This document shows, one piece after another, positions 1-25,315 of a stretch of DNA of 64,000 nucleotides. Position 1 is the first letter of the stretch. Each line of letters opens with the position of its first letter. The position numbers and the translations under genes were made by a program. The DNA lies in the NCBI GenBank assembly GCA_963575745.1, contig CAUYUJ010000286.1, positions 1 to 64,000 on the forward strand. Reading direction: 5' to 3'. The DNA comes from Prorocentrum cordatum (Eukaryota). The notes beneath the pieces are model-generated. The model saw nothing but the letters and a program-made list of their open reading frames with translations, was not told the origin of the DNA and did no database searches.

Positions 1-5
1 TCCTC

Positions 6-2947
6 ATGACTTGCGAGGGCAAGCACGGCGTGAGGAACCCGTTCGACAGCATTCAGAAGCTCGACGTCATCGGCATGAGGTTGAAGGACAGTGCCGACCT
101 GAAATGGGCAATCACTTGCTTGTACGACATGTGGCAGATGGGGTCGGTCGGCGAGACCATTGGGGAGCGCCAGCTGAAGGGGCAGGCGCCAGGCATGCAG
201 GGTAAAGGCTGGGTGGAATTGGCCATGCTGAAGCGGTCCTTGCGCGACGTCCTGCTGAACGACTTCGTCAACGCAAAGGGCTACGCGCCTGAGGTGCTCA
301 GCCAGATGCAAAGCCTGACCGTCGACATCGCAAGCTACCGTGGGAAGTTCGGCATGCCTGGCAAGATTGCCCCACGGACCTTACCTGTCGCGCCGGGTGG
401 AAGGACCTCCCCTCCTCCTTATCGTTTTCACTCTCATCCTCCTCATCCTCCTCGTCTCCCTCATCCTCATCCTGCAGTCAGGAGTCCGCGGAGAAGGTCT
501 TCAGGCTGCTGGAGGACTTAGGGGCGGCATCAAGGTCCGAGGGCATCGGCCGGGCGGAACCCGACGACGACTCGGGCGGTCGGGTCGGGCGGGCCCCTCG
601 GGCGGCCAGGGAGGGGAGGGGAGGTGATGTCCAGGAGCCTTGGGCGGCGTCGGGGTTCGGGGTTCCATCGCTCAGGATATCGTGTTCGCCTCGGAGTACG
701 ATGGCTACCTCAAGAAGAACCTTGTCTTCAGGAGGAGCCCCCAAGAGATGCTCGCGCACCCCCCGTTCAGCGACATCTTGGCTTCGGCGGACGAGAGCTA
801 CCGGAACGAGATCGGGGCGGTTCCCGAGGCCGCAGAAGTGACGACGGTCGTGGTCGACGAGGACGAGCCCATCGTCCACTGCGTGGAAGCGGAGCACATC
901 CCGCTCGCGAGCAGCACCAACGAGGAGATCCACATCGCGACTGTCGACGAGGCCACCATCTCGAAACTCAAGCGCCTGAAGAAAGACGTGTTCCAGCGGG
1001 TCCGCACCCAGGTGCAGTTGCGCGCGCCTCAGTCGCCGCCGGGCGAGGGGGCGCCAGGTTTACCTTGAGATCGGCGGTTGCAGCTCGACGCGGTTTGCCC
1101 GCCGCGATCGGGGTGCGAGGCGATCGGCCGATGTCTAATCCTCCGCCTCATCCCTCCTACTCGCCTCCCCTTTCCCTCCAGCGATGCCCCTCTCCCCCCG
1201 TCCCCTCTTCCTCGCTTTTTTTTTTCTTCTCTGGGCGCTTCGCGCATCCCCAAGCCCGACAGCCCATCCAACAACGATGCCCAGGCGAGTTGAGGTGTTG
1301 TTGTGAGAAGTTGTAGGAAGTCTCTTGGAGCCATCTTGGAGCTATCTTGGGGTCCTCTTGGGGCCCTCTTGGGGGCCGCTTCGGGCTCTTTTGGGGCCAT
1401 CTCGGGGCCCTTTGGGGTCTCAGAGACCCTTTTGGAGCCATCTTGGGCGATCTTGGCAGAAGGGAAGGAGGGGCTGTGGAAGCCCAGAGGGCTGGTGGGT
1501 TTGGCGGCGGAGACTCAGGTTTCCCGAGCCTGCCACCGAGACCGAGCTGGCGACGCTCATCAGGGAGAGCAGCGCCTATCACGAGGGCTTTAAACCGCAG
1601 GTGTCGAAGACGAAGAAGTACATCGGTGTGTTCTACGACCAGAAGGTCGCCGGCCAAGGCGACGCGCGGCCGAACGCGAGGCCGCCCTACTTGAGGAACG
1701 CGCACATGGAGAAGCACATCTGCGCGGCCATCAAGGCGGCCCCGGTTGCTGCGGATCCTGAGGAGCAGGAGTGCTATCGTCAGCGCGTTGCCCTGGGCCC
1801 TGGCCGGGCGCTCGCCCTGCCCGCCTCGGGGCAAGGCGTTCGCCTGGGGGGGCCAAGGGCAGGTGCGGGGGGATAGCCGCACCAGGATAATGCTCCGAAG
1901 CACTTGCCCGCGGAGCTCGCGTTCTTCGCGTGCGACGGGGGGAAGACTGGGCAGGAGACGACGCTCATGAACGAGTTCGTCGACGAGAGCAACAAGCCCT
2001 ACCACAAGTCCAAGCGCGCAGTGACGGTCATCTACTCGGAGGAAAGCGTGGTGAACCGCCTCAAGATCAAGCGCAGAACCACGGCTGGCGCGCTCCAGGC
2101 CGAGAAGATGTACATCGTCACCGGCAAGGCGATCGAGATCGAGGACAAGGCCAGGCTCGCGTTGAGCGGCACCACTGTCGGGGAGCACATCAGTTGCGCC
2201 TGGAGGTCCTGGAGCGACCCGAGCCATTGGACGATGAAGCGCAAGCACAAGGCGACCATCATCACGAAGAAGGACACCATTGCGAACGGTGGCCGCGGAC
2301 CCGGTCACGACGAGGAGGAGGGGCGCAAGGCGGAGAAGGAGGAGGCCAAGGCCATCACGCCGGAGAGCGAAGAGCAGGTGTTCTGGTGGGCACCGCCGCC
2401 CACCCTGCAGGATGAATGGATCCACAACTTCAACCTTCGCGCGGTGGTCGACCTCACTCCCGGGGATGGCGCCAGGGCGATGTGCTGCATCAAAAATAAG
2501 ATCCCATACGTGGCCATCTGCTTCCACCAGGAGAACGTCGAAGCCTTGTACGACCATCTCTTCAAGGAGACCATGAAGGAATCGTTGAACGAGGGCTGCA
2601 AGCAGCTCTACTCCTCGGAGCTGGCGGCCGTCGTCGTCGACAGCCGGAAGGCTAAGACCGAGGAGAGCGGCACGGACACGGCCGACAAGAAGAAGGGCGC
2701 GAAGAACAAGACCGGCAGCAGCGGCGGTAGCAAGGACGGCGGCAAGGACGGCGGTGGCAGCGGCGCCAGCGGCGGTGGCAGCAAGGACCCCATGGACCGC
2801 TCGGCACTGGTGGATCGCATCCGCGCGCTGGCTGGCGGCCCCGCTGCCAAAAGGCGCAAGAAGGAGAAGGCTGAGGATGACGCCGCTGAGGGTGAAGATG
2901 GTGCGGACTCCGTCTCCGACGTCGAAGAGGAGGCGCGATGGTGTTGA
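6..2947 (+). CDS. Multi-exon gene (5' end probably outside window); C-terminal region resembles a divergent beta-class N6-adenine/N4-cytosine DNA methyltransferase domain
   Basis: Inferred exons <6-403, 478/482-514, 676-1016/1019, 1519-1768, 1886-2947 join in frame via GA/GC/GT-AG introns. Last exon reads VFWWAPPPTLQDEWIHNFNLRAVVDLTPGDGARAMCCIKNKIPYVAICFHQENVEALYDHL, with the spacing of the N6_N4_Mtase C-terminal motifs (KPxxLxxxxI...VLDPFxGSGTT..A....R..IGIE....Y.....RL). No DPPY/SPPY motif is evident. K/G/S/acidic-rich tail. Confidence 0.6.
1236..1500 (+). mobile_element. Short copy of a MITE-like element inside intron 3 (same family as 25529-26252)
   Basis: Shares GCTTCGCG.ATCCCCA..AGCCC..CCAGGCGAGTTGAGGTGTTGTTG start, internal (GGGCCCTCTTG)-like subrepeats and CCCAGAGGGCTGGTGGG end with the 25.5 kb copy. 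Confidence 0.6.
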
Positions 2948-4049: not shown

Positions 4050-4553
4050 TCACTTGTGGGCCTTGGGCTTGGCCTTCGGCTTCGCCCTCGCGGCGGCCTT
4101 GTTGGGCTTGGCCTTCGGCTTCACCCTCGCGGCGGCCTTGGGCTTGGCCTTCGACTTCTTCTTCGGCATGGCCTTCGGCTTCTTCTTCTTCGGCGTGGCC
4201 TTCGACTTCTTCTTCGGCATGGCCTTCGTCTTCGTCTTCGGATCGATGTGCTCGTCGAGGGGGTCGTCGAGGGGGCTCGCCTCGGCCTCGATCAAGCTGG
4301 AGGGGGGCGGCGTCCAGCGCCACTTTTCTTCCACCTGATCGCCGTCCCAGTTCAAACCGACGAGGACCCCACGCCATCCCTCGCGCACGTCCCTCCCACG
4401 CCACCTTTTCATCTCGACGAACGATTTCGGCGATGTCTTCTCTTGGGCAGCCTCGGCCTCGGCTGCGAGCTGGGCAGCCTCGGCCTCGGCTGCGAGCTGG
4501 GCTGCACGCCCTCGGGAGTGGCGGCTGGCCTTGCCGCCGCCGCCGGTCGGCAT
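4050..4553 (-). CDS. Small basic protein with histone-H1-like Lys/Ala/Pro-rich C-terminal tail
   Basis: 167-aa ORF with a Trp-rich middle (RWRGRDVREGWRGVLVGLNWDGDQVEEKWRW) and tail KAMPKKKSKATPKKKKPKAMPKKKSKAKPKAAARVKPKAKP. Relict spliced leader 57 nt upstream of the ATG. Confidence 0.65.
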   Translation of the reverse strand: MPTGGGGKASRHSRGRAAQLAAEAEAAQLAAEAEAAQEKTSPKSFVEMKRWRGRDVREGWRGVLVGLNWDGDQVEEKWRWTPPPSSLIEAEASPLDDPLDEHIDPKTKTKAMPKKKSKATPKKKKPKAMPKKKSKAKPKAAARVKPKAKPNKAAARAKPKAKPKAHK

Positions 4554-4610
4554 GACTGTCGCGCGGGCTGTCGGGCGCTTCGGGCTTGGGCTGTCGGGCG
4601 CGGCTGTAGG

Positions 4611-4632
4611 CTTGAGCCAAAACCGCTACGGA
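4611..4632 (-). other. Relict dinoflagellate spliced leader
   Basis: Reverse complement TCCGTAGCGGTTTTGGCTCAAG matches DinoSL TCCGTAGCCATTTTGGCTCAAG at 20/22. Confidence 0.85.
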
Positions 4633-4880: not shown

Positions 4881-4902
4881 TCCATTGCCGTTTTGGCTCA
4901 AA
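4881..4902 (+). other. Relict dinoflagellate spliced leader
   Basis: TCCATTGCCGTTTTGGCTCAAA, 18/22 to DinoSL, upstream of the HAD-domain ORF. Confidence 0.8.
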
Positions 4903-4951
4903 TCGTATCCTGCGGGCCGCCCCTTGGCCATCCCGCGGGCCGCCCCCTTCG

Positions 4952-5775
4952 GCCCAACTTCATATGGTGGCGTGCCCACTTCGAAGCGCTGGAGATTGCG
5001 TGACTCTGTGCGCTGGAGATTGCGCTTCGGGAGATTGTGGCTGTCGACCTGATCTCGGAGCGCAAGCCGTTGGAGAATGGCACGCGCCGCGGTCAAAGTT
5101 GGCGTCGATCTTGGCGACGTCATGAGCACCAGGGACACCGGTGATGACAAGAAGCCAGAGGGCGACGACATCTACGCGGCAGTAACGCGAGGTTTTTTCG
5201 CGCTCGCCTTGTTGTTCGGCATGGTGCATGGGCTGGAGAACCTGCACATCGTGAGTCGCTCCCAACGTGGCTCGTGGCGGTCGTACCACAAGAAGCACGG
5301 TCACGTTGAGGCGTGGCCCGTGCGCTTCGTCAAGCAGACAGGGCTCGTCGAGATGGGCATGCCGCCCAACTTCATATGGTGGCGTGCCCACTTCGAAGCG
5401 CTGGAGATTGCGTGACTCTGTGCGCTGGAGATTGCGCTTCGGGAGATTGTGGCTGTCGACCTGATCTCGGAGCGCAAGCCGTTGGAGAATGGCACGCGCC
5501 GCGGTCAAAGTTGGCGTCGATCTTGGCGACGTCATGAGCACCAGGGACACCGGTGATGACAAGAAGCCAGAGGGCGACGACATCTACGCGGCAGTAACGC
5601 GAGGTTTTTTCGCGCTCGCCTTGTTGTTCGGCATGGTGCATGGGCTGGAGAACCTGCACATCGTGAGTCGCTCCCAACGTGGCTCGTGGCGGTCGTACCA
5701 CAAGAAGCACGGTCACGTTGAGGCGTGGCCCGTGCGCTTCGTCAAGCAGACAGGGCTCGTCGAGATGGGCATGCC
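4952..5775 (+). repeat. Perfect 412-bp tandem duplication (4952-5363 / 5364-5775)
   Basis: Both copies begin GCCCAACTTCATATGG and appear identical. The duplication yields a truncated chimeric ORF 5077-5415 in front of the full ORF 5489-7120. Confidence 0.95.
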
Positions 5776-7120
5776 GCTGAACCACCTACATCTGTGCGAG
5801 CGGAAGAGTGGCGAGAAGGGCAAGGGCGCTATCGCTTCCAGACTGGGACTCACGCACCACATCGACAACGACATCGAATGCCTTTGGTCGATGGTGCACG
5901 ACGATGACAACATGTGGGCGAACATCGTCGAAGAGAAGGGCTTCTTGGTGATGTTCACTGAACTGAGGCCAGTCATGAATAACAAGTGGATGACAAAAAG
6001 CTTGCGCGAGTGCATGTGCGAAGCTGGCTCGCGGCAAGAAGTCGCCCGTCTCTTTGAGTTGCCGCATGTGGACGGTCCTGGCGCGTGGGACTGGCTCGAT
6101 CAGCAAGGCCCACCGCATCGCCGATATTCTGGCACAACGGTGGAGCGCGTCCGACAGGAGCTGGACGAATGGCTAGCATCATCTACAAGGCCTTTAACGT
6201 CCACGTGGGGTTCGCCACCGATTGTCCCCCGGCGTGAACGCGATGATGACGATGATGAGTGGCGTCGTCAAGAAGCACGCCGTCTCGAAATCAAATACCG
6301 AGAAGAACTGGCAGCCGCAGACGCTAAAGCGCAACGCGATGCGGAGGAGCTCCGACAGCAAGAAAAAGCAGAAGAACGAGCTGAGCAAGTTCGACAACAT
6401 GAAAAACGCATCCGACAGCAAGAAGAAGCAGAAGAACGAGCTGAGCAAGTTCGACAACATGAAGAACGCATCCGACAGCAAGAAAAAGCAGAAGAACGAG
6501 CTGCTGAGCAAGTTCTACAACATGCACAACGCATCCGACAGCAAGAAGAAGCAGAAGAACGAGCTGAGCAAGTTCGACAACATGAAGAACGCATCCGACA
6601 GCAAGAAGAAGCAGAAGAACGAGCTGCTGGGCAAGTTCGACAACATGAAGAACGCATTGCAGCTCTTCGCGCTGAGGAGGATCGACTTCGCGCAACACAG
6701 GAACGGCTACAGCAGCATGTGCTAGTCAGCGACGCTCTACGACAACGTCGAGAACAGGACGCGGCGCTTCACAACAACTTCCGCGCGTTGGAGGCCCAGG
6801 CGCAGGGTATGGCAGAAGAACTTTCACGCCGCAGTGGTGACTGGAAGCCGTGGAGCACGTGGGCCAGCAACGAGCGGTGCAACGACGGGTGGAACTACAA
6901 GAAGTACAAGAGGGCCATGGAGCACGCCATGCGGATCCGCCCGAGTCCAGCATGTGTGCGCCGCGTGGTAACCCCTATGTGCGCATCTTGTCACATCAAT
7001 CAGCCTGGTGTGTACTGTCCATATTCTTTGCGCTCCCCATGTTGCCAGAGCGCTTCGTGGGCGGGGCGGGCCAGCAGCTCCAGCGCCAACGCCAACGAGT
7101 GCTGGCAACACGCTTTGTGA
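5489..7120 (+). CDS. HAD-superfamily (5'-nucleotidase/deoxyribonucleotidase-like) domain + coiled-coil repeats + C-terminal Cys-rich Zn-binding motif
   Basis: Motif I VGVDLGDV, motif II LHIVSR, motifs III/IV KGAIASRLGLTHHIDND. About five 20-21-aa repeats RIRQQEEAEERAEQVRQHEE (6350-6660). C-terminal CASCHINQPGVYC...SPCC. Confidence 0.7.
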   Translation: MARAAVKVGVDLGDVMSTRDTGDDKKPEGDDIYAAVTRGFFALALLFGMVHGLENLHIVSRSQRGSWRSYHKKHGHVEAWPVRFVKQTGLVEMGMPLNHLHLCERKSGEKGKGAIASRLGLTHHIDNDIECLWSMVHDDDNMWANIVEEKGFLVMFTELRPVMNNKWMTKSLRECMCEAGSRQEVARLFELPHVDGPGAWDWLDQQGPPHRRYSGTTVERVRQELDEWLASSTRPLTSTWGSPPIVPRRERDDDDDEWRRQEARRLEIKYREELAAADAKAQRDAEELRQQEKAEERAEQVRQHEKRIRQQEEAEERAEQVRQHEERIRQQEKAEERAAEQVLQHAQRIRQQEEAEERAEQVRQHEERIRQQEEAEERAAGQVRQHEERIAALRAEEDRLRATQERLQQHVLVSDALRQRREQDAALHNNFRALEAQAQGMAEELSRRSGDWKPWSTWASNERCNDGWNYKKYKRAMEHAMRIRPSPACVRRVVTPMCASCHINQPGVYCPYSLRSPCCQSASWAGRASSSSANANECWQHAL

Positions 7121-7542: not shown

Positions 7543-8961
7543 CTATTGCGCTGCTGCTGTTGGAGCGCTGCACTGGGAGCAGAGGAACTCTTCGGAGGCG
7601 AATTGTGACCTCGAGCCTATTGGCACCAAAGTACCAACGCTTCCGGAGACGTAGGCCGGGCACCTATCGCACGGCACATGAGACCCCGGCTGAGCGTACC
7701 AGAGCGGCTCACACCTCTTCAGGCTGGCCACGCTCCACTTCTGCTCGAGAGTCGGGCCCTTGTCGTCGTCGCCTGTCTGAATACCGTCGCTCCACGAGAC
7801 GCTCCGCTTCTTCTTGGAAACGCCCGCAGAGCTCGAAGTGGCGTCGGTTTTCCGCTTCTTGAGCTTCGACGGGCCTGGCGGGCCCGCCAGCGCGCTCGAC
7901 GGCGGAGGCTGCGCGGGCCGCTGATTGTCGCACATGATGCTGGGGTACACCAGCCTGCCCGCGAGCGCCATCTGCCCGAACTTGTAGTGCTTCTCCTTCA
8001 ACGTTTCGGTGATGCCGTACAAGTTCTCGAGGTGCTTGAGCGCGGCCTGTATCTCTTCGCGCGACTCCTTGACACTCGGCCACGTACGGCGCCACAACTG
8101 GAAGCGCTCCTCGCTGTTGAAGACCTCCTTCATCATGCCCATCTTGATGGACACGAACTCAGCGCCGAGGTGCTGGAGGTCGTCGTGCAGGAGCTTGTAG
8201 GCAAGGATCTGCGCCGGGCCCTGGGACCGCGGGCGCCCGCTGCCCGCTGGCGCCGCGCGCGCCGGTGGCGCCGATGGCGCCGGTGGCGCCGGTGGACCTG
8301 GAGGCGACGGCGGCGCCTCCGCCGCCCCTGAAGTCTTCTTCGGAGAATCCGAGAGCTCCGATGACTCCGAGTCCGAAGAAGAATCGGACGACTCCGTCGA
8401 CGACGGCGTCGCCGGCGGCGGCGTGGGCGGAGGCCCCCGAGTCGCCTGCTGCGGCGTGGGCGGAGGCCGCGCCGTCGAAGCCGTCCCGCTGCCCTCATTC
8501 TTGGCGCCCTCGCTCCTGGTCGGCGTTGGCGGCGCTGGCGACGCCGGCGCTGGCGACGCTGTCCTGCTGGTCCGCGCACGGGGGCCCATAAGGTTCCAGG
8601 AGCCTTCGTCGCCGAACTTCGGCCAGAGGTCTTCAGAGACGGTCGCCCTGTCACGCCACAGCTTGCTGCCACCCCCGCCCCCCCACCAGCTGGCGAAGCG
8701 CCTGACCACGCCACGATGCTGTTGCTTGCAGGCCTTGTCCTCCGGAGACGCACACACCAGCTCTAGGTACTCCTTCGACGCCATCGCGGGGAAGGTGATG
8801 TCGTCGCGCATGAGCAACATTCGGAAGAACACCCCGAACTTCTTCACCGAGGAGGGGTTGCACTTCTTCACCAGCCAGTCCTCCCGGAAGCGATAGGACA
8901 CTAGGGGGAAGTAGACCACGTCGTCGATGCAGTTCTTGTGCTTGCTGGTGAACACCTCCAT
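7543..8961 (-). CDS. Hypothetical protein (~472 aa) with Pro/Ser-rich linkers and C-terminal CxxC...CxxC zinc ribbon
   Basis: Long ORF with coding-like GC3 bias. Probable start MEVFTSK at 8961. Ends PCDRC...FLCSQC. Relict SL at 9115-9128 (-). Confidence 0.7.
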   Translation of the reverse strand: MEVFTSKHKNCIDDVVYFPLVSYRFREDWLVKKCNPSSVKKFGVFFRMLLMRDDITFPAMASKEYLELVCASPEDKACKQQHRGVVRRFASWWGGGGGSKLWRDRATVSEDLWPKFGDEGSWNLMGPRARTSRTASPAPASPAPPTPTRSEGAKNEGSGTASTARPPPTPQQATRGPPPTPPPATPSSTESSDSSSDSESSELSDSPKKTSGAAEAPPSPPGPPAPPAPSAPPARAAPAGSGRPRSQGPAQILAYKLLHDDLQHLGAEFVSIKMGMMKEVFNSEERFQLWRRTWPSVKESREEIQAALKHLENLYGITETLKEKHYKFGQMALAGRLVYPSIMCDNQRPAQPPPSSALAGPPGPSKLKKRKTDATSSSAGVSKKKRSVSWSDGIQTGDDDKGPTLEQKWSVASLKRCEPLWYAQPGSHVPCDRCPAYVSGSVGTLVPIGSRSQFASEEFLCSQCSAPTAAAQ

Positions 8962-9205: not shown

Positions 9206-9965
9206 GCGGTTTTAAGCGGAACCCCAGGAAACGCGAGGTGTGCTGGGCTCCCTCCCCTCCTCCTCCTCCTCCTCCCCCCTCCTCCTCCTCCTCCTCATCA
9301 TCCTTCTCCTCCTACCTACCTACTAGTCAGTTTGAATCAATGCCGCATCCTCCTCTGCCTCCCTCCCTCCTCCCTCCGCCCCTCCTCCCTCCCTCCTCTC
9401 CTCTCCACTCCACCGCCTCATTTCATCTCCTCCCCTCCGCCTCCCTGGCCATCGTGTGCAGAACAAGAGCATCCTCTCCTCTCGTCCGCCTCCTCTTCTC
9501 CGCCATCTCCTCTAAGGCATAATCCGTGCCAGCTGCTTCGGCTGACCCATCCACCCTCAGCTGCTTCGGCTGACCCATACTCCACCCCCGCCCAGCTTCA
9601 GAAGACTTCGACACGACCATCCGTAACAACGGATGATATTTCTAAGGCTGATTGCCCAAAATGGGTGTTGGGGAGCATGCGAACCCTGTGGCCGAACCAG
9701 CCAACAAACGTTAAACGAGGCCGAACCAGCCAGCCCGACTGGCGCTGTCTCTTCAAAACGAGGACCCAACACCACAGGGTGGTTGGGAAAGCGACCTCCA
9801 TCCGTGTAATTTCCGAAGCTGTTAAGACGAAGTGATGAAGATGGGAGGAGGGAGGGGGCAGCGGGAAGAAGGTGGGAACGCGGGGCGCTGTCTCTTCAAA
9901 ACGAGGACCCAACACCACAGGATGGTTGGGAAAAAAGCCCTGCGGGGACCCCTCCTCCCTCCTCC
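9206..9965 (+). repeat. ~760-bp dispersed direct repeat, copy 1
   Basis: Near-identical to 16762-17520. Starts GCGGTTTTAAGCGGAACCCC and contains two TTCAAAACGAGGACCCAACACCACAGG.TGGTTGGGAAA hairpin modules. Confidence 0.95.
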
Positions 9966-11857: not shown

Positions 11858-11892
11858 CGCCTCGCCTCGGCGCGCAACGATGAACGGCGGCC

Positions 11893-15198: not shown

Positions 15199-15224
15199 TC
15201 CGCAGCCGTTTGGGCTTCCTCAAG
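15199..15224 (+). other. Relict spliced leader upstream of the dioxygenase
   Basis: TCCGCAGCCGTTTGGGCT[TCCT]CAAG, 19/22 to DinoSL with a 4-nt insertion. Confidence 0.7.
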
Positions 15225-15265
15225 GCGCAGACGCCAGCAGCTCAAGGCTGCACCCGCGCCGTGCC

Positions 15266-16402
15266 ATGGAGCCATATGTTATGGGCGTCGCCATGTGTGC
15301 CGTAGGCATGGTCGTGGGCGCCATGTGTGCCGCGAAAGTGCTCAGGCTCGCGGGAGACAGGCTCGCCGTGCACGGGCCCGAAGCGTCCGAGAACTGGTCC
15401 GACGATCCCGAGCCGCCGGAGTCGCCGTCGTCGATCCTCCTGTCTGCAGCTACTGCTGACCCGAGAATTCCTTGGCGGACCCGGTGGTCCCAGCGCCGGG
15501 CGCCAGCGCCCGCAGGGTCGCCGCCGAATGGCCCGGTGAGTCCTGCAGCCCCCGCCCTGGCGGACGCGGTGGTGAACGCGTCGGCGCGGCCGCCGCCGAG
15601 CACGCCTCCGCCGAGCGTACCCAGGCCCCCAGCAGGGCCGCCGCCGTCGGCCCTGCAGATACCGCCGCCGCCGCCGAGGGTGCCCGCGCCGCCAGCAGGG
15701 CCGCCTCCAGGTGTGTTCTTTGCGGAGACCGTGGCGCAACGTGCAGATGGGGATGCGGCATGGCGTTTCTTCATGGATCACGGCTTCGTCGTGATCGACC
15801 TCGGCCTGGACGCCGAGGACTTGCTCGCCTTGCACAGAGTTTCTGTCGACATGGCGTTGTTGGCGCCCATGCCTGCCACGAAGCACAATCGTGGGACGGG
15901 GCGCACGTGCGTCAACAGTATTCAGAATATCTACCGCGGCGCTTGGCAAGAGGCTCTCAAGATCATCTTGCGACGTCATCAGACCTCGTTTGTGCTGGCG
16001 GAGTTGGTCAAGGCCTACAACATCAAGTTTCACGATTGCGGCGGTGACTACGTCGAGCAAGGTGTGGACGACGCCACCGAGCTCGCTCACAGGAACCCGT
16101 GCGATTGGCATCGGGACTGCAACTACTACCTGCAATGGTTCTGCATATCAGTCCTGACGGCGGAAACAGACCTCCGACATGGACCGCTGTTTCTGGAGAG
16201 CTGGAGTACCAACAAGGAACAGGTGATTTTCCTAGGCAAGCCTGGGCTTTGTGTAATTAGAGATGTGTGGAACTTGCACCGCGGCAGTGCAAACACATCC
16301 CGCATGCCGCGGGCGATGCCCAGTTTCCGCTTCTGCACTGGCAACAATGCCAGGCCAGATGCTATGACCCCCCAGGACCTTCTAGAGTTCATTGGTCTAT
16401 AG
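15266..16402 (+). CDS. 2-oxoglutarate/Fe(II)-dependent dioxygenase, PhyH-like, with N-terminal hydrophobic helix and Pro-rich linker
   Basis: FFMDHGFVVIDL domain start, HxD in DWHRDC, GPLFL, distal His and 2OG-binding Arg in GKPGLCVIRDVWNLHRGSANTSRMPR. Confidence 0.85.
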   Translation: MEPYVMGVAMCAVGMVVGAMCAAKVLRLAGDRLAVHGPEASENWSDDPEPPESPSSILLSAATADPRIPWRTRWSQRRAPAPAGSPPNGPVSPAAPALADAVVNASARPPPSTPPPSVPRPPAGPPPSALQIPPPPPRVPAPPAGPPPGVFFAETVAQRADGDAAWRFFMDHGFVVIDLGLDAEDLLALHRVSVDMALLAPMPATKHNRGTGRTCVNSIQNIYRGAWQEALKIILRRHQTSFVLAELVKAYNIKFHDCGGDYVEQGVDDATELAHRNPCDWHRDCNYYLQWFCISVLTAETDLRHGPLFLESWSTNKEQVIFLGKPGLCVIRDVWNLHRGSANTSRMPRAMPSFRFCTGNNARPDAMTPQDLLEFIGL

Positions 16403-16761: not shown

Positions 16762-17520
16762 GCGGTTTTAAGCGGAACCCCAGGAAACGCGAGGTGTGCT
16801 GGGCTCCCTCCCCTCCTCCTCCCCCCCCTCCCCCCCCTCCTCCTCCCCCTCCTCATCCTTCTCCTCCTACCTACCTACTAGTCAGTTTGAATCAGTGCCG
16901 CATCCTCCTCTGCCTCCCTCCCTCCTCCCTCCGTCCCTCCTCCCTCCCTCCTCTCCTCTCCACTCCACCGCCTCATTTCATCTCCTCCCCTCCGCCTCCC
17001 TGGCCATCGTGTGCAGGACAAGAGCATCCTCTCCTCTCGTCCGCCTCCTCTTCTCCGCCATCTCCTCTAAGGCATAATCCGTGCCAGCTGCTTCGGCTGA
17101 CCCATCCGCCCTCAGCTGCTTCGGCTGACCCATGCTCCACCCCCGCCCAGCTTCAGAAGACTTCGACACGACCATCCGTAACAACGGATGATATGTCTAA
17201 GGCTGATTGCCCAAAATGGGCGTTGGGGGGCATGCGAACCCTGTGGCCGAACCGGCCAACAAACGTTAAACGAGGCCGAACCAGCCAGCCCGACTGGCGC
17301 CGTCTCTTCAAAACGAGGACCCAACACCACAGGGTGGTTGGGAAAGCGACCTCCATCCGTGTAATTTCCGAAGCTGTTAAGACGAAGTGATGAAGATGGG
17401 AGGAGGGAGGGGGCAGCGGGAAGAAGGTGGGAACGCGGGGCGCTGTCTCTTCAAAACGAGGACCCAACACCACAGGATGGTTGGGAAAAAAGCCCTGCTG
17501 GGACCCCTCCTCCCTCCTCA
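16762..17520 (+). repeat. ~760-bp dispersed direct repeat, copy 2
   Basis: Near-identical to 9206-9965. Bracketed by a 35-bp direct repeat (16703-16737 / 17532-17566, 33/35 identical). Confidence 0.95.
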
Positions 17521-17593
17521 TCCTCCTCCTCCTGCCTCGTGGGGTCGGGCCAAGCAAATAGCTATCTTTAGGCGAGATATACCCATTGTAATA

Positions 17594-17687: not shown

Positions 17688-18461
17688 ATGGACGCTTCGT
17701 GGGAACCCCCTCAGCAGGTCAGGCTGCAGAACGGGGCATGGAGGCCGGCTCCTTGGTGCAAGTGGGTAAATGATAACTGGCGGTGTTACATGTGCAGCAG
17801 CAAGGGCGTTTGCATGACTCCAGAACATATTGCATCTGAGCTCCACGTGCGGCGCACGGACGTCAAGTGTGGCTACTGTTACACGTACACACGTGAGTTC
17901 GGGTCGAGGATCGAGGAAGTGTGGACGCGCGAGGACTCTATCCGTGCTGCTGAGCCTGATCAGCCTGACACGCAGGACGCCGTCGCTCCTCCAGCGCTCC
18001 CCGGTGGTCCTGCAGGGCTCCCCGACCCCGCGGCCCAGGGTCAGCTCGCCGGTGGCGTTGTCCAGGCCCCGCTGCCCGGTGCTCCAGGGCTCGTCGCGAC
18101 GCAGCCGACGCCCCCGAAGATCGACGCGATGCAGACGACGCTCGATGCGAAGATCGACGCGATGCAGACGACGCTCGATGCGAAGCTCGATGCGCTGCAG
18201 AGGACGCTCGACAGGCTGGACGTTATGCAGACTGCAGTGGACTCGAAGCTCGAGAGGCTCGAGGCTGCAGCGGAATCGTTGCAGACCAACGTGGACGCGA
18301 AGCTGAAGGGGCTTGGCACTGCAGTGGACTCGTGGCAGACTGTAGTGGACGCGAAGCTGGCCGCGGTGACTGAGAAACTCGATAAGATCGATAGGATGTT
18401 CACGAGTCCACCGCGCGGAATGGGAGCGGTGGCTGCGCGGGCTGCGCGCGAGGCCTCGTAG
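17688..18461 (+). CDS. U1/matrin-type C2H2 zinc-finger protein with C-terminal 11-residue-repeat coiled coil
   Basis: CYMCSSKGVCMTPEHIASELH (CxxC...HxxSxxH), Pro-rich linker, KIDAMQTTLDA repeats. Confidence 0.75.
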   Translation: MDASWEPPQQVRLQNGAWRPAPWCKWVNDNWRCYMCSSKGVCMTPEHIASELHVRRTDVKCGYCYTYTREFGSRIEEVWTREDSIRAAEPDQPDTQDAVAPPALPGGPAGLPDPAAQGQLAGGVVQAPLPGAPGLVATQPTPPKIDAMQTTLDAKIDAMQTTLDAKLDALQRTLDRLDVMQTAVDSKLERLEAAAESLQTNVDAKLKGLGTAVDSWQTVVDAKLAAVTEKLDKIDRMFTSPPRGMGAVAARAAREAS

Positions 18462-19545: not shown

Positions 19546-22500
19546 ATGGACGGCTGGGATGTTTTCTTGGACGCCATTCCGCCGCCGCCCGCCGCGCCTA
19601 GCGGCGGGGCGACGCGCCCGCGACCCGCCGCCAGCAGCCAACCGCCAGCCCTGGGGGCGCCGCTGTGCAGGGACTTCCAATTCACTCGCCTCAGTGACTA
19701 CACCATCGACAAGTACGAGAAGCACGTCGACTTGTGTGATTCTGTAGATTGCGTTATCTGTTTCGCAGCTAAACGCCTGGGTACATCGCACTGGTTCTGG
19801 CGCGAAACCCTCTTGGACCCTCTGGCCCCAGACCGCGGTACGTGGGCAGCGTTCGCGACGATGTCGACGGGAAGGCCAGCGCTGGGCTGCTGGATATGCT
19901 CTACAAGCACCAAGATGAACAAGCCCGGCCTCGCCCAATTCAGTTTGGATTCGCCTGATGTCCTGATCCAATCCAACATCAAGAAGCACGTGAGCTCACA
20001 GATTCACAAGGAGCTGAGCAGCGTCGTCGTTGGCACCATCGCATCTGGGAAGACGCCTGTCCAAATTACGGTTCCTGGGGCCCCATCTGTTTCGACTTTC
20101 AGAAGCCTCCTGCAGGCAGTTCGGGGAGAGGGCCCATCCGACCTCCCCGCATTCGGAAGAGCAAGAAAGAAGAGACGCATGGTTTGGTGCATAGCCGAGG
20201 CATTGCGGTCTCTATTGCGCTCCTTCTTCAAGAAGAAGACAGTGTCTTCTATTCTGCAAGACACTACGGAGGAGGTCCTGCTCATGCGCATCAGGGGCTG
20301 CGATACGAACATCAACGTGATGAGCGGTATCGTCGGTGTATGTGATTTGACAAAGCCGCCGTTCAACGGCAGAGCGACTGGCATCCGGGACGCTTCCCTG
20401 CACGTCCTTCGGGAGTTTTGCACGCCACTTCGGGGCCCGCCGTTTTCGAAGAAGCACGGCAGATTCGACCAGAAGCTGTTCAAGAGCGTGTGCGAGTCCG
20501 TGCAGATGTATACAGCTGACTCTGCAGCGCCGGAGCAAGTGGCTGGCAAGTTCTTGAAGGACCTTCTGCCGCTGCTGCTCTCCTTCTCTTTTACTCTCCT
20601 CCCTCCTTCTCCTCGTTCACTCTCCCTCGTCTTCCACCTCCCTTATCACCACCTCCACCGCTGCTGCTCCGCCTCCTCGTGCTCTCCTAACCCTCTTTCT
20701 CCCCCTCCTCCGCAACCTCCGTTCCCTTCTGCCCTCCTCCTCTCCTCCTCCGCTCCATCCCATTTTCCGCGCCCTGAGAGGACGCCGGGTGGGCCCAGGC
20801 AGCTAGGTGCATTTCTCGCGACGTGCTCCCTAACTTGAAAAAGGTTGCGCAGGACAAGCCCCACGGCGTCCGGAGGGCGTGCTCGAGGGCATGGGCTGCA
20901 GACCAGTACCTGAGCGACACGGCGGACATCATGATCCTCGCGAAAGGTTCGATCACGACCCTGATACAGAACTCCCCGACGTTCAAGGGATGGTTTCAGC
21001 AACACAATGAGAAGTTGGATCACTGCCCGTTCCAGGCCAACAGGATCCGCGACCTGAGCTTCGCAAAGCATCGCTTCAATTCGACGCAGAAGCCTTTCGG
21101 GCGACACGTCCTGATGTTCAAGAGCGTGATTGCGACGGCAACCCAGATAGCTACCTCTCGCGTGGGCAAGCAGGAGAGCAAGCTGGCCTCGGCGTACTTG
21201 TCCTTTCTGGACGTGGAGCGCGCAGTCACGTTGGCTCTCCTGGCAGATGCGGGGGACGAGTGCAACATGCTCATCCGCGTCATGGACACCGAGCGCATGG
21301 ACGTCTCTGCTGTTTCCATGAACTTGCGCGCCTTCCTCAGCAGGATCCATGCTCTCTTCGTTGATGAACATTGTTGGAAGCTCGGCTACACGCAGTACAT
21401 GGTGCAGCAACTTCAGGAGCCCGTGCTCCTCCTCGCAATGGATGGTCAGAAGACGCTGGGATGCGCGGCCGGCGTCCCCGTCGACGTCAAGAGGAGGTGC
21501 GTGCAACGGATGGCTAATTGGGTCCACTTGGCCCGCGAGACCATACGTGCAGAAATTCCAGAGTTCGAGATCATCTACGCGATGAGGGCATTCAATCTCG
21601 GCGAGCTATCGCAGTCCCTCGGCGCGCCCGCACAGGGTTCGCAGCATGACCTAGGGAATCAGACTATGTCCCAATTGCGAGCAAGTTGCGACAGCTTGGC
21701 CGAATTCGTCTGCGTGAACCCGACCGCACTGTTCAGCCAGCTCAACGACGTGAGGCCGATAGCGCAGCAGATGCTGATAGACCCGTCTTGTACTGGTACT
21801 ATTGCCGCGTGGGCGATGGCGGTTGCCGAGTGTCAGAAAGACGCCCGAAACGCGAAGCTCCACCCGGTGGGGGCGTTGAGGCCAGTACTGATGACCTTCG
21901 GCGCCTACGGCCCGAGCACTAGCGGCCTCGAGCAGAACTTCTCGCAGATCCTCAACCTCGCTGGCGCGAATCGGCCAGACAAGTGGGGGGGCTACATACA
22001 GGACGAGCTCGTGATCAAGCAGCCGTGGAGCAAGGGCCACATCGATCGAGCGGCGGCGCTGGCGCCTAAGATCTGGGCAAAGATTTACGGACCGGTTCGC
22101 AGGCCAAGAGTGCGCGTCCGCATGGACATTCACAAGGAAGCCCCCGCAAGGGCGCGCGACGTCAACACTGAGACGTCCTGGATTCGGGGCAGGCGCGCCG
22201 ATGTTCAGGGCGTTGTTTCCCAGAAACGGCCAGTCGACTTGACGAGCGCCCCGGGCACGCGGACCGTCGGGGTTGACGGATGGACCGCCGACCACGAGAA
22301 GGAGGTGAAGTTCCAGCAGAATAAGAGGCAGAAGCGTTTCCACGATTCCGCGCTGAATGGAGAGATCCCGGAGGACCAGCTGGCCTGCGCCAGCGAGGAC
22401 CCAGGATGGAACAATGAAAATTTCCTCCTCACCCTCCTATCCCTGGCCCCGCCCCCCTCCCGTCCCTGGCCCCACACTCCTCGCCCTCCTATCATCCCTG

Positions 22501-23489
22501 GCGCCACGTCGGAGGGCCCCTGCGGGGCGCGGGAAGTCAGCAGGGGAAAAGCTGTGCACAGGGGGAGGGGGCTGAGGGGGGGAGGAGGAGAACACTCGAA
22601 CAGGCACGTGGTCAGCCAAGTCAAAGCGGCGACATGCAACGCAGGAAAACAATGCAATGCTGATGATGCAACACAGCAAAAAACGGGGGGGGAGGACGGG
22701 GGGGGACGGGGGGGGAGGAGGAGGACGGGGGGGGAGGACGCGGCGGAGGAGGAGGACCCAAACTATCTTCTGATTTCGGGGGTGTGTCACCATCAGGAGG
22801 AGCTCAAGGGCGTCCTCGACCAAGTAGCGACGGAGAGAAAGAGGGTCAATGCATACGTGGCGAAGGCCAAGAGACAGTCCGCAGCCGAGGCGCCGCGCGT
22901 CGCACGACTGCGCGGCAAGAATGTTTTCTTCGATAAGTCCGTGGCCCTCCCGGAGGCGAGCCGTGTTGCTGACGTACTAAATAGGAACGGGGCCGGCGTA
23001 GTTGCGACTCGTCCAGAGGCGGACGTGTTCGTTGTTAAGGATGTGGAGTCTCCTGGGCAGCGCGTCCAGTTCGCGGCAGCCCTGATCGGCGGCGTGGTGT
23101 GCACGTTTGTATATCTCGAAACGCGCGGCGCTGCGGGCGTCGCCGTGGCTTACAAGCCGCAAGTCACAATGCATCGGTTTGCTTGGTGTTCGGCAGCGTT
23201 CATAGCTGCGCACCCATCTTCGCACGAGATAATTCGGGGAATGAGCGAGCGGAGCGAGTCTAAATGGACTTTGTATGAGCCTGATTGTAAGCTTGTGTTC
23301 GCAGAGAAGGCGACCCGTCTCAACGCGCAGAAGAAATTCGCGAACTCCGTTGCTTTTGTGACTGCCGGGGAAAAGGCCGATCCAGCCATCTCGTGCGTGA
23401 GAACGCGCCTTACAGGCCCTGAGGCGCTTTTAAAGTATGTGGTGCTGGACCCCGTTCGATGCGCGGTCGGCGCGTGCCATCGACGATGA
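19546..23489 (+). CDS. hAT-like DDE transposase (~1107 aa, 3 exons) with N-terminal zinc finger and C-terminal BRCT-like domain
   Basis: Exons 19546-20559, 20781-22397, 22797-23489 join in phase 0 through GA-AG introns. ZnF GCWIC...KKHVSSQIH; D1 SILQD; D2 YTADSAAPE; DxxH (QDKPH); HRFNS (cf. hAT TRWNS); catalytic E in GPSTSGLEQNFS (cf. PxxSxxxERxFS). BRCT-like LRGKNVFF...LNRNGAGVV...ADVFVV...AALIGGVVCTFVYL. Confidence 0.85.
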
Positions 23490-23879: not shown

Positions 23880-23938
23880 TTGATTTGGGCAGGCGCACGT
23901 ACCGCCGTGCAAACTTTTGCCGACCGACGCGGGTCGCC

Positions 23939-25315
23939 ATGGCCTTCAATCAGCAGTCTGCCCCGTTGCCTCTGCGCCCGTTGCCTCTGCGCCCGTTGGG
24001 CTTGCCGCCCCGCCCGCGCAAGCGCCCGGCCCCTGAGCTTCCTGTGCAGGAGGAGGACCCACCAGAGGTGGCCCCGGCGGAGCTGGATGATACGCGGCAG
24101 TCGCTGGAGGTGCTGGACGTGGAGATGGCGTCCCAGCTGGAACTCGGCACTGGTGGTATCAGCAGCGACAAGGTGGTCTTGGGCACCGACTGCTCGGGGC
24201 TGGACACGTTCAAGGTCGCTTTGGACGCTGTTCTGGTCAAAGGCGGGAAGGATGTCGTGCACGCGTTCGCGTCCGACAACCGGCTGTGGGCACGCAAGTT
24301 CATCAAGAAGCACAACCCGGGCTTGTGCATCGTGTGCAGCGACATCACCAAGCGCCCCAACAAGCAAACGCCCTACGTGGACATTTACTGCGCCTCGCTT
24401 CCGAACAATGGCCAGTACACGGCACAGGAGCTGTCCGACGGCGTGGATAACCCCCACGACAAGGATATCGTCACGATGCACGTTCTCAACTACATCAAGG
24501 AGAAGAGGCCCAAGGCATTCCTGCTCGAGTCCAGGGCCCACCTCTACAGCGCGAGCATGAAGCCAGAGATGGCGGCGGTGCACGGCTACCTGCAGAAGAA
24601 GCTCACGACCGAGAGCGGCGACCCGAGCTACTACGTCTGGAGCGACCCGATGGACGCGCGTTGCGATGGTGGCCTGCCTCAGGCGTCGCAAAGGTTGTTC
24701 TTCGTTGGCATCCTCAAGACGGCAGTGGATCCCAGGGCCGTTTCCAACCCGTTGACCCTCTCTCAGATGGAGGAGAAGAGCCTCGCGGACGTGCTGGACC
24801 CATACGTCGCGCCACTCTCCAGGCCCGACTTCGACGAGCCGCCAGGCCTGAGTCCGGCCCAGCTCCGCAATTACAAGAAGGTCAAGGACTGGCTCGAGCC
24901 CGCCATAGACGTGAAGATGCCGAACCCCCCTGGCAATCAGATCATCATCTCGGACTTGAGCGTCGGTCCGACGAGGGACCCCGACACTTTGCGAGGATGC
25001 TCGATCGGCCTGACGCCCAGCCGCCCGAACGGCTACTTCATCTGGGGGAGGCAGCGGTTCATGACGACTACTGAGATGGAGTCGCTGCAGGCCATTCCGA
25101 ACGACCACTTTAAGTACGACGGCATCATCAGCGAGAACCAGTACAAGAAGCTCGTCGCTGAGGCGCCGCCTGCCCCGATAGTCGGCCGCGTCTTGCGCAA
25201 GATTTTGCTACAGGTGAAGCTCCCTCCGGCTATCGTGGAGCCCGACCCTTGGTGCCCTTCTTCGGGCTGGGCGAAGGCGAAGGCTTATCCTCCTGTGTTC
25301 CCCTACTTCGACTGA
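23939..25315 (+). CDS. C5 DNA methyltransferase-fold protein, predicted catalytically inactive paralog
   Basis: Collinear with 10508-11857: LGTDCSG, HAFASDN, SDIT, GGLPQ, RFMTTTEMESLQ retained. Motif IV is SLPNNGQY (no PC), motif VI is LLESRAH (no ENV), motif VIII is QASQR, motif X is LVAEA. ORF uninterrupted. Confidence 0.85.
   Translation: MAFNQQSAPLPLRPLPLRPLGLPPRPRKRPAPELPVQEEDPPEVAPAELDDTRQSLEVLDVEMASQLELGTGGISSDKVVLGTDCSGLDTFKVALDAVLVKGGKDVVHAFASDNRLWARKFIKKHNPGLCIVCSDITKRPNKQTPYVDIYCASLPNNGQYTAQELSDGVDNPHDKDIVTMHVLNYIKEKRPKAFLLESRAHLYSASMKPEMAAVHGYLQKKLTTESGDPSYYVWSDPMDARCDGGLPQASQRLFFVGILKTAVDPRAVSNPLTLSQMEEKSLADVLDPYVAPLSRPDFDEPPGLSPAQLRNYKKVKDWLEPAIDVKMPNPPGNQIIISDLSVGPTRDPDTLRGCSIGLTPSRPNGYFIWGRQRFMTTTEMESLQAIPNDHFKYDGIISENQYKKLVAEAPPAPIVGRVLRKILLQVKLPPAIVEPDPWCPSSGWAKAKAYPPVFPYFD

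What the first reader, a model, noticed from the sequence alone, without database searches (positions are those of the whole stretch)
1..25315. Candidate giant hAT-type DNA transposon carrying a DNA/nucleotide-modification toolkit
Seen: about 11 genes packed into 25 kb, followed by ~39 kb with no recognisable intact gene. The island holds a hAT-like transposase, an intact C5-DNMT, a dead DNMT paralog 450 bp downstream of the transposase on the same strand, an N6/N4-MTase-like gene, a PhyH-type 2OG-Fe(II) dioxygenase, a HAD nucleotidase-like gene, two Zn-finger proteins and an H1-like basic protein, on mixed strands. Established: Symbiodiniaceae retrotransposons carry C5-DNMTs; fungal KDZ-type DNA transposons travel with TET/JBP dioxygenases; phage base-modification clusters combine MTases, 2OG oxygenases and nucleotidases; dinoflagellate DNA contains 5mC and hydroxymethyluracil. 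Inference: a large cut-and-paste element that writes or edits its own DNA marks. I do not recall this cargo set being described with a hAT transposase. Neither terminus is identified here.
Basis: partly seen in the sequence, partly recalled or inferred. Interest (0 to 1): 0.9.

Follow-up and report, generated by a model that had tools for sequence, protein, structure and literature searches.

The report
hAT-like gene linked to DNA methyltransferases
A dinoflagellate gene cluster really does put a transposase-like gene beside several DNA-modification genes, and part of that pairing recurs in other dinoflagellates, but nothing shows that the 25 kb moves as one giant transposon.

Summary
The window comes from Prorocentrum cordatum or a very close relative: the nearest proteins are 98-99.8% identical.

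- ORF 19546-23489 belongs to a family whose model matches Hermes hAT transposase plus tandem BRCT.
- 10433-11857 is an intact C5-DNMT.
- 23939-25315, 449 bp downstream of the transposase-like gene, is its catalytically dead sister paralog.
- The left-edge gene belongs to a large dinoflagellate family with a ParB-like plus beta-class N6A/N4C methyltransferase fold.
- 15179-16402 looks PhyH-like by language-model features only.
- The HAD and zinc-finger calls have no support from any library.

A core trio recurs in dinoflagellate metagenome contigs. hAT-like followed by C5-DNMT occurs in L017 and L018. hAT-like with the ParB/MTase-fold gene occurs in L008, L017 and L018. L008 also has an AlkB-like oxygenase.

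A single 25-kb element is not shown.

- No TIR or TSD was found.
- The left gene runs off the window.
- Two genes carry spliced-leader relics.
- A 778-bp direct repeat brackets three genes.
- Close paralogs are annotated on different contigs.

Verdict: partly supported, interest about 0.6.

The parts
3..2944 (+). Gene A (3' part). Coding-like pieces are 3-518, 628-1065, part of 1307-1873, and 1877-2944. It belongs to a large dinoflagellate family with a ParB-like plus beta-class N6A/N4C-methyltransferase fold. The window's left end cuts it.
   Evidence: High GC3. Homologs lie in L008 9361-12862, L017 15960-20601 and L018 14500-18862. The family has 1922 representatives at E<=1e-3. A model of member P0058 (pLDDT 80.9) matches M1.HpyAVI, M.RsrI, CcrM and M.PvuII with probability 1.0, and ParB/Spo0J/Noc with probability 0.97-0.99. 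0 of 25 members have a Pfam hit.
4053..4631 (-). Gene K. It is a 167-aa ORF (4053-4553) with a Lys-rich, H1-like tail, headed by a relict dinoflagellate spliced leader at 4611-4631.
   Evidence: Translation and GC3 of 0.87. The spliced-leader match has 2 mismatches in 21 nt, against 0 expected in 100 shuffles.
4882..7120 (+). Gene B (ATG 5489, stop 7118-7120). A relict spliced leader at 4882-4902 heads it. Its 5' end is duplicated by an exact 414-bp tandem repeat (4952-5365 and 5364-5777).
   Evidence: Spliced-leader relic. Tandem duplication at 100% identity. No hit in Pfam, PHROGs, NCBIfam or PDB.
7546..8961 (-). Gene C, of unknown function. Its C-terminus is Cys-rich.
   Evidence: GC3 of 0.79 and translation. 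No family hit.
9206..9982 (+). Left copy of the 778-bp direct repeat.
   Evidence: 97.7% identical to 16762-17538. The left edge is sharp and the flanks are unrelated. A possible 5-bp duplication, GTGGG, lies outside the pair.
10433..11857 (+). Gene D, an intact bacterial-type C5 cytosine DNA methyltransferase.
   Evidence: PF00145 E 1.6e-37. TIGR00675 125.6 bits against a cut-off of 100.65. M.HhaI E 2.7e-10. Motifs are intact. Close copies are 99.8% (P0052) and 98.7% (CAK0788983) identical.
14079..14858 (-). Gene E, a Gln/Pro-rich low-complexity ORF.
   Evidence: GC3 of 0.85. No family hit.
15179..16402 (+). Gene F. It has a Pro-rich N-terminus and a probable PhyH-type 2OG-Fe(II) oxygenase domain at the C-terminus.
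   Evidence: For residues 185-412, the Atlas feature search gives a score of 0.95 with 170 shared features, and 21 of 30 hits are PhyH clusters. HxD and a distal H/R are seen by eye. Pfam, PHROGs, NCBIfam and PDB phmmer give no hit.
16762..17538 (+). Right copy of the 778-bp direct repeat.
17688..18461 (+). Gene G. It has a Cys/His-rich N-terminus and a coiled-coil repeat.
   Evidence: Translation. Only sub-threshold coiled-coil hits.
19546..23489 (+). Gene H, a hAT-superfamily transposase-like protein with a C-terminal tandem BRCT. The likely intron runs from about 20578 to 20798. A probable in-frame intron runs from about 22410 to 22800.
   Evidence: 11 homologs and alignment A1. The model of family member P0005 matches Hermes transposase in all 10 top ranks (E 2e-7 to 1.5e-5, about 570-595 columns). 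It also matches BRCT repeats of BARD1, BRCA1 and KKT4 with probability 1.0. The D, D, E, His and Trp columns are conserved, in the window too. Exon limits come from P0002 and the alignment.
23939..25315 (+). Gene I, a catalytically dead C5-DNMT paralog that is the sister of D.
   Evidence: PF00145 E 6.6e-10. It is 31% identical to D, E 7e-53. PCQ, ENV and GN are lost, and the same losses appear in P0012 and P0013. The D and I clades are sisters (SH-aLRT 96), and I has a long stem.
25520..26170 (.). Dispersed minisatellite-like repeat with the unit GGCCCCAAGAG. Other copies lie at 1236-1456 (direct) and about 7202-7320 (inverted).

Best explanation
The 25 kb is a gene-dense stretch of a Prorocentrum cordatum-type nuclear genome. 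It contains a conserved, co-inherited neighbourhood of three families.
- H is a hAT-derived DDE protein with a BED-like N-terminus and a C-terminal tandem BRCT.
- The second is a bacterial-type C5-DNMT lineage. Here it has split into an active copy (D) and a dead copy (I) that lies directly downstream of H.
- A is a ParB-like plus beta-class MTase-fold protein.

Around these sit a PhyH-like oxygenase (F), two retrogenes (B, K) and lineage-specific ORFs. Satellite DNA lies next to the island. The island as a whole is not one transposon.

I read the trio as a low-copy, largely vertically inherited module that duplicates locally. It descends from a hAT element and now probably acts on DNA marks or repair.

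Shown: the folds, the motif states, the D/I sister relation, and the recurrence of the linkage.

Inferred:
- H still binds or cuts DNA, because its catalytic residues are kept.
- The BRCT repeat ties H to phospho-dependent repair factors.
- D methylates cytosines.
- I is a non-catalytic DNA-binding or regulatory subunit.
- A loads on DNA through its ParB-like part.
For: Folds:
- H family against Hermes plus BRCT.
- A family against N6A/N4C methyltransferases plus ParB.

Linkage beyond this window:
- A DNMT with intact motifs lies 2-3 kb downstream of H-like, on the same strand, in L017 and L018.
- An A-like gene lies downstream of H-like in L008, L017 and L018.
- That is 3 of the 5 loci with at least 3 kb downstream of H for A-like, and 2 of 5 for DNMT. 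L017 and L018 are diverged copies of one arrangement.
- L008 has an AlkB-like oxygenase next to H.

Low copy and long residence:
- The word-indexed search returned 11 H-family proteins at E<=1e-3.
- The 20 metagenome loci collapse to 14.
- In the GC-rich loci the H reading frame breaks at one conserved place.
- Identities are 25-35% with the full architecture kept.

Not one element:
- No TIR or TSD.
- Spliced-leader relics at B and K.
- The 778-bp repeats around D, E and F.
- A runs off the window.
- The dead motifs of I are conserved in copies at 89-99.6% identity without stops.
Against: - Catalytic D, D and E are intact in H, which fits an active transposase just as well.
- P. cordatum holds several 95-99.8% copies of H, I and D. 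That could reflect recent transposition rather than the general gene duplication of this genome.
- The genes next to H differ between lineages (DNMT, AlkB-like, and an ORF that looks glycosyltransferase-like by eye only). This is what variable cargo looks like.
- The A family is very large, so some H-A proximity could be chance. I had no control set of dinoflagellate contigs.
- No genome was held, so copy structure and flanks could not be examined.
Confidence: 0.45

Rival explanations
1. A composite hAT-type DNA transposon, active or recently active, has a core cargo of a C5-DNMT and the ParB/MTase-fold gene, with an oxygenase in some lineages. Its limits differ from 1-25315 and are not visible in this window.
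For: - Catalytic residues are intact, with a Hermes-like fold.
- Linkage with DNA-modification genes recurs in diverged contigs, and the neighbours vary.
- Several near-identical copies exist in P. cordatum.
- An inverted pair of a dispersed repeat at about 7202-7320 and 25700-25790 would enclose genes C to I.
Against: - No TIR plus TSD was found.
- The inverted pair is a minisatellite-like family that is also present in direct orientation at 1236-1456.
- H is low-copy, and no two metagenome loci share an element with different flanks.
- Close copies of H, I and D are annotated on different contigs.
Confidence: 0.27
2. The whole 25 kb, with about 11 genes, is one giant hAT cut-and-paste element.
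For: Genes are dense here and gene-poor satellite DNA follows. Several genes have functions related to DNA modification.
Against: - Gene A is cut by the window edge.
- Only H, the DNMT and A recur elsewhere.
- B and K are retrogenes with spliced-leader relics.
- D, E and F have their own flanking direct repeats.
- No termini were found.
Confidence: 0.08
3. This is a chance neighbourhood. Multi-copy dinoflagellate gene families, duplicated by retroposition and segmental duplication, happen to lie together.
For: - The A family has 1922 clusters.
- P. cordatum genes commonly have close paralogs.
- Spliced-leader relics show retroposition at this locus.
Against: - H is followed by a DNMT on the same strand in the window, in L017, in L018 and probably on the 9,410-bp contig.
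- An A-like gene lies within about 5-17 kb of H in the window and in three loci.
- The H and DNMT lineages are small: 11 and 33 proteins found.
Confidence: 0.12
4. This is a remnant of an integrated virus or virus-like element that carried a phage-style DNA hypermodification cassette.
For: - The gene set (ParB-like, N6/N4-MT fold, C5-MT, 2OG oxygenase) resembles phage 5mYOX clusters (PMC13229309, passages read).
- The nearest Atlas clusters for F and for the L008 oxygenase include viral ones.
Against: - The H family has no relative in IMG/VR.
- No capsid, polymerase or packaging gene appears in Pfam or PHROGs.
- The genes have introns and a conserved intron place.
Confidence: 0.05

Closest known systems
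Hermes and other hAT transposases
   Same: The H-family model aligns with Hermes over about 570-595 columns at probability 1.0. The two Asp, the Glu in the C-terminal S-x-S-G-x-E-x-x-F-S block, the His after the second Asp and a Trp are all conserved.
   Different: - No Pfam hAT dimerisation or BED hit.
- It carries a C-terminal tandem BRCT.
- It is low-copy.
- No TIR or 8-bp TSD was found.
SymbioLINE-Dnmt and SymbioDIRS-Dnmt3 (de Mendoza et al. 2018, PMC5890265, passages read)
   Same: These are dinoflagellate mobile-element genes linked to C5-DNMTs, with DNMTs that lack other domains.
   Different: Those are retrotransposons with RT, endonuclease or tyrosine recombinase, and with hundreds of copies. 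Here no RT or integrase domain exists in the window. The partner is a DDE hAT-like protein, and the copy number is low.
EpiLTRs, retrotransposons with both adenine and cytosine methyltransferases (bioRxiv 10.64898/2026.05.21.726589, passages read)
   Same: One unit holds a 5mC-type and an N6A-type methyltransferase.
   Different: EpiLTRs are LTR retrotransposons of other eukaryotes. Here the MTase-fold protein lacks a clear DPPY motif, and the GxG is often lost in the family.
Phage 5mYOX / ParB DNA-hypermodification clusters (PMC13229309, passages read)
   Same: ParB, C5-MT, N6/N4-MT, 2OG oxygenase, glycosyltransferase and HAD genes occur together.
   Different: No TET/JBP-type oxygenase is found here. 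F is PhyH-like and the L008 gene is AlkB-like. The genes are eukaryotic with introns. ParB and the MTase fold are fused in a protein of about 960 aa.
KDZ/Plavaka transposons with TET/JBP in fungi, and DNMT3L with DNMT3A (both recalled, not read here)
   Same: A DNA transposase travels with a DNA-base-modifying enzyme. A dead methyltransferase paralog is kept beside an active one.
   Different: The transposase superfamily and the enzymes differ. No evidence that D and I interact.

Membership tests
hAT superfamily transposase | RNase-H-like DDE core split by a large all-alpha insertion domain | tested here: met
   Foldseek ranks 1-10 are all Hermes at probability 1.0 for family member P0005. The window's ORFs align with it along its length.
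hAT superfamily transposase | Catalytic D, D, E plus a C/DxxH-type His and a Trp | tested here: met
   The columns are conserved in alignment A1 and present in the window protein. They were assigned by motif order, not by superposition. The Hermes residue numbers are recalled.
hAT superfamily transposase | Pfam hAT C-terminal dimerisation domain and BED finger | tested here: inconclusive
   No Pfam hit at E<=5. A Cys/His pattern is seen by eye. PF25431 matches L009 below its cut-off only, at E 4e-4.
hAT superfamily transposase | Short TIRs and an 8-bp target-site duplication | tested here: not met
   49 candidate pairs all involve tri-nucleotide microsatellite sequence (the script's own flag marked 5). 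0 inverted exact matches of at least 12 bp lie between 17400-19700 and 23400-27500.
hAT superfamily transposase | Several copies with shared ends and different flanks | not testable with these tools
   No genome is held. Read laying gave nothing. Every pair of metagenome loci that align at high identity is a set of overlapping contigs of one locus.
C5 cytosine DNA methyltransferase (PF00145) | Motifs I, IV (Pro-Cys), VI (ENV), VIII (QxRxR) and X (GN) | tested here: met
   Gene D.
C5 cytosine DNA methyltransferase (PF00145) | Catalytic Pro-Cys and ENV in gene I | tested here: not met
   Gene I reads SLPNNGQ, LESR and AEAPP at these places. The same is seen in P0012 and P0013. The fold-level Pfam match is kept.
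Beta-class N6A/N4C DNA methyltransferase | Fold with the circularly permuted motif order | tested here: met
   P0058 model against M1.HpyAVI, M.RsrI, CcrM, M.PvuII and MboIIA at probability 1.0, TMt 0.5-0.64. The window's 1877-2944 aligns to that part.
Beta-class N6A/N4C DNA methyltransferase | (D/N/S)PP(Y/F) and FxGxG motifs; Pfam PF01555 | tested here: not met
   0 of 25 members hit any Pfam family. No DPPY column was seen, and the GxG is lost in many members and in L017/L018.
PhyH 2OG-Fe(II) oxygenase (PF05721) | Profile match and the HxD...H facial triad | tested here: inconclusive
   No Pfam hit at E<=5. Atlas feature score 0.95, with 21 of 30 hits PhyH. The triad is seen by eye only.
HAD phosphatase / nucleotidase | Profile match and the DxD motif | tested here: not met
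   Gene B has no hit in Pfam, PHROGs, NCBIfam or PDB.
DNMT-bearing retrotransposon (SymbioLINE / SymbioDIRS) or LTR element | RT, endonuclease or tyrosine recombinase beside the DNMT; LTRs with TG..CA | tested here: not met
   No such Pfam domain appears in 318 ORFs. The 778-bp repeats start GCGG.
Dinoflagellate retrogene | Relict spliced leader at the 5' end | tested here: met
   K: 2 mismatches in 21 nt. B: 4 mismatches in 21 nt, or 1 in the 3' 12 nt. 18 of 20 shuffles give 0 hits at 4 or fewer edits.

The most novel reading that the evidence does not exclude
Dinoflagellates carry a hAT-type element, or a system derived from one. Its transposase-BRCT protein travels with a phage-like DNA-modification cassette: a C5-methyltransferase, a ParB-fused N6A/N4C-methyltransferase-fold protein, and 2OG oxygenases of varying type. 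The cassette marks the element's own DNA or its target sites. The very large ParB/MTase-fold family (about 1900 clusters, no Pfam model) would be its dispersed footprint.
Probability: 0.22. Interest if true: 0.85.

Novelty: new variant of a known kind. Interest (0 to 1): 0.6.

Why it matters
Dinoflagellate DNA is heavily modified with 5mC and 5hmU. Transposon-borne DNMTs are so far known in this group only from retrotransposons (PMC5890265). 5hmU has been tied to transposon silencing (PMC11572971).

A DDE-transposase-derived protein that stays next to cytosine-methyltransferase and ParB/MTase-fold genes across diverged dinoflagellates would be a new kind of link between mobile-element machinery and DNA marks. 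It would give concrete genes to test.

Two things stand regardless of how the transposon question is settled.
- The ParB plus beta-class MTase-fold family is large and has no Pfam model. My three literature searches turned up no paper that describes it.
- The conserved dead DNMT paralog is a clear case of a retained non-catalytic methyltransferase.

Tried and rejected
- The look-up of sequencing runs listed no RNA holder.
- Complex prediction of D (115-474) with I (70-458) gave no answer, score 0.00. It is not evidence either way.
- PDB phmmer found nothing for F, B, A, the L014 ORF or the L008 ORF.
- PHROGs and NCBIfam on 14 ORFs hit only the two DNMTs.
- The search for related loci with the 13-row alignment A1 failed for lack of a conserved stretch. 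The 6-row A3 worked.
- The IMG/VR scan for the H family found none.
- The TIR/TSD scan gave only microsatellite artefacts. My reversed-sequence control was not a valid control, because reversal preserves inverted repeats.
- dN/dS of H between near-identical metagenome variants had too few changes, 1-10 per class.
- Spliced-leader-like stretches before C (about 9113-9135) and I (about 23860-23882) were seen by eye but are not significant. One inside D's coding region at 10452 I dropped, because the same peptide is kept in the expressed-size copy P0016.
- The reading of the 778-bp repeats as LTRs is rejected. There is no RT or IN, no TG..CA, and no PBS or PPT by eye.
- The DLTPGDG stretch of A as a SAM motif is rejected. 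It is not conserved in L017/L018.
- The search of earlier findings was blank three times.
- The exact look-up of nine window ORFs in the protein collection found none of them.

Full report
**Source and layout.** The window has about 60% G+C and one 100-N gap at 38211-38310. No whole genome is held for it. The nearest database proteins are named Prorocentrum cordatum and are 98-99.8% identical to window ORFs. None of nine window ORFs is in the protein collection letter for letter. The source is therefore P. cordatum or a very close relative, and the database proteins are other copies. Using codon-position G+C (real frames have GC3 of 0.7-0.87) I find ten coding-like gene models in 1-25.3 kb. 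I label them A, K, B, C, D, E, F, G, H and I. Beyond 25.3 kb I see microsatellites and three satellite arrays, at 34.3-35.3 kb, 50.8-54.1 kb and 58.2-59.6 kb. No ORF there passes a Pfam cut-off. No fetched protein matches there either, apart from a low-complexity repeat at 25.5-25.7 kb.

**What the libraries see.** I scanned 181 stop-to-stop ORFs of at least 150 aa over the whole window, and 137 ORFs of 72-149 aa in 1-26.9 kb. Pfam reports only PF00145, twice: D (E 1.6e-37) and I (E 6.6e-10). Relaxing to E<=5 on 18 ORFs adds nothing for H, F, B, C or A. PHROGs and NCBIfam agree.

**The two DNMTs.** D has the Pro-Cys, ENV, QxRxR and GN motifs and matches M.HhaI. I is 31% identical to D (E 7e-53) but has lost Pro-Cys, ENV and GN. 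The same losses appear in copies at 89-99.6% identity, without stop codons. In a quick maximum-likelihood tree of 45 rows, the D and I clades are sisters (SH-aLRT 96). I sits on a stem about three times as long as D's (the careful search did not finish). I starts 449 bp after H's stop codon on the same strand.

**The transposase-like gene.** H has 11 relatives at E<=1e-3 in the word-indexed protein search. None of them carries a Pfam domain. The alignment shows a Cys/His N-terminus, two conserved Asp, an invariant His, a Trp, and a Glu in a C-terminal S-x-S-G-x-E-x-x-F-S block. All of these are present in the window protein, which is split by one clear intron and probably a second, in-frame one. 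An AlphaFold model of member P0005, built with this alignment, has pLDDT 77 and pTM 0.65. It matches Hermes transposase in all ten top Foldseek ranks (E 2e-7 to 1.5e-5, about 570-595 columns). Its C-terminus matches BRCT repeats. The fold of hAT is met. The termini of a hAT element are not.

**The left-edge gene.** A's last exon aligns with ORFs in L008, L017 and L018. A profile of these finds 1922 cluster representatives at E<=1e-3, with 985 at E<=1e-10. Full-length members are about 950-1040 aa. Named members are from P. cordatum (four contigs), Symbiodinium sp. CCMP2592 and Heterocapsa arctica. None of 25 members has a Pfam hit. A model of P0058 built with 67 rows (pLDDT 80.9) matches beta-class N6A/N4C DNA methyltransferases at probability 1.0, and ParB/Spo0J/Noc at 0.97-0.99. 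The family keeps the block before and around motif I. The GxG is often lost and I see no DPPY column. It is therefore MTase-fold with activity open.

**Other genes.**
- F's C-terminal half scores 0.95 against PhyH clusters in the protein atlas, with 170 shared features and 21 of 30 hits. That is a lead, not a test.
- B (HAD-like) and the Cys-rich C and G have no support anywhere.
- K has a Lys-rich tail.

**Test of co-occurrence.** A scan of JGI metagenome contigs with a six-row H alignment gave 20 loci, which collapse to 14 after merging overlapping contigs. One locus carries a near-perfect spliced-leader relic, so these are dinoflagellate DNA. Five loci have at least 3 kb downstream of the H-like gene: L007, L008, L014, L017 and L018.
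- Two (L017, L018) have a multi-exon C5-DNMT with intact motifs 2-3 kb downstream on the same strand.
- Three (L008, L017, L018) have an A-like gene further downstream.
- L017 and L018 are colinear over at least 17 kb at 65-83% identity, so they count as one arrangement seen twice.
- L008 also has an ORF that the atlas places with AlkB-type 2OG oxygenases: score 0.94, 184 shared features, 25 of 30 hits.
- An ENA contig of 9,410 bp appears to hold both an H-like and an I-like protein, judged from contig length only.
- None of B, C, E, F, G or K has a match in these loci at E<=1e-3.

The core linkage is real as far as I can test it. Two cautions apply. The A family is so large that I cannot put a number on chance. 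And the tree places the L017/L018 DNMTs outside the D+I clade.

**Against one 25-kb element.**
- (a) A scan for 8-bp TSDs with terminal inverted repeats of at least 12 matches in 16 nt enclosing H gave 49 pairs, all involving tri-nucleotide microsatellite sequence (the script's own flag marked 5). My control there was invalid. No inverted exact match of at least 12 bp lies between 17.4-19.7 kb and 23.4-27.5 kb.
- (b) A is cut by the window edge.
- (c) K and B are headed by relict spliced leaders at 4611-4631 (-) and 4882-4902 (+). The first has 2 mismatches in 21 nt, against 0 matches in 100 shuffles at up to 3 mismatches. This is the mark of mRNA retroposition.
- (d) D, E and F lie between 778-bp direct repeats that are 97.7% identical, with sharp edges and a possible 5-bp flanking duplication.
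- (e) The annotated P. cordatum proteins closest to H, I and D sit on contigs of 73,420, of 79,162 and 564,844, and of 667,674 bp respectively. The H copy is partial, so a downstream gene could be off its contig, and gene models may be incomplete. This is suggestive only.
- (f) An inverted pair of a dispersed repeat (about 7202-7320 and 25700-25790) would enclose C to I. It belongs to a GGCCCCAAGAG minisatellite family that is also present in direct orientation at 1236-1456.

**Reading.** I take the trio H, DNMT and A as a conserved module that descends from a hAT element. Here it is embedded in an ordinary, duplication-prone gene array (confidence 0.45). The main rival is a still-mobile composite element with undefined ends (0.27).

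**Literature.** I searched five times and read passages of five papers.
- PMC5890265 describes DNMTs in Symbiodinium LINE- and DIRS-type retrotransposons.
- The 2026 preprint 10.64898/2026.05.21.726589 describes LTR elements with both adenine and cytosine methyltransferases.
- PMC13229309 describes phage clusters that join ParB, C5-MT, N6/N4-MT, glycosyltransferase and HAD genes with TET/JBP-type oxygenases.
- PMC11572971 shows that a dinoflagellate TET/JBP homolog makes 5hmU and links 5hmU to transposon silencing.
- PMC4738411 surveys eukaryotic adenine methyltransferases, including ParB-linked ones.

None of the listings or passages I saw describes a hAT-like/BRCT protein linked to these genes, or the ParB/MTase-fold family of dinoflagellates. 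I did not read the papers whole or their supplements, so this is not proof of absence.

Noticed in passing
window 4952-5777: An exact 414-bp tandem duplication (4952-5365 and 5364-5777, 100% identical) repeats the 5' UTR and the first ~96 codons of gene B. It is either very recent or an assembly artefact.
   Followed up: partly
window 12341-12570: A 230-bp imperfect palindrome (86% self-complementary) lies between D and E. Smaller nested inverted repeats extend from 12219.
   Followed up: no
window 34312-35338; 50804-54086; 58195-59600: Three satellite arrays have units of about 102, about 90 (also 171) and 81 bp. The 3.3-kb array at 50.8-54.1 kb is 70-80% self-similar.
   Followed up: no
window 42928-42942 (-): A third spliced-leader-like 15-mer (2 mismatches) lies in the stretch without recognisable genes. 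It may be the relic of a decayed retrogene.
   Followed up: no
L014 3520-5595 (also L010 4851-5321): The ORF downstream of the H-like gene has a DCDN...GG.DE pattern that looks glycosyltransferase-like by eye. Pfam and PDB phmmer give no hit.
   Followed up: partly
P0007 and P0173 (protein records): An H-like and an A-like protein are both filed under one 'MAG: bacterium' record series (GY772_). These families are otherwise dinoflagellate, so the bin probably holds eukaryotic contigs.
   Followed up: no
window 15400-25350 (runs X1-X6): Small runs (129-1634 million letters), including marine metagenomes, hold 0.51-0.78 of the sampled words of this stretch. That would be much for a single-copy locus of a 4-Gb genome.
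   Followed up: no
window 9684-9702 and 17239-17253 versus 26723-26741: A 15-19-nt exact inverted match links the 778-bp repeats with a site 1.4 kb right of gene I.
   Followed up: no
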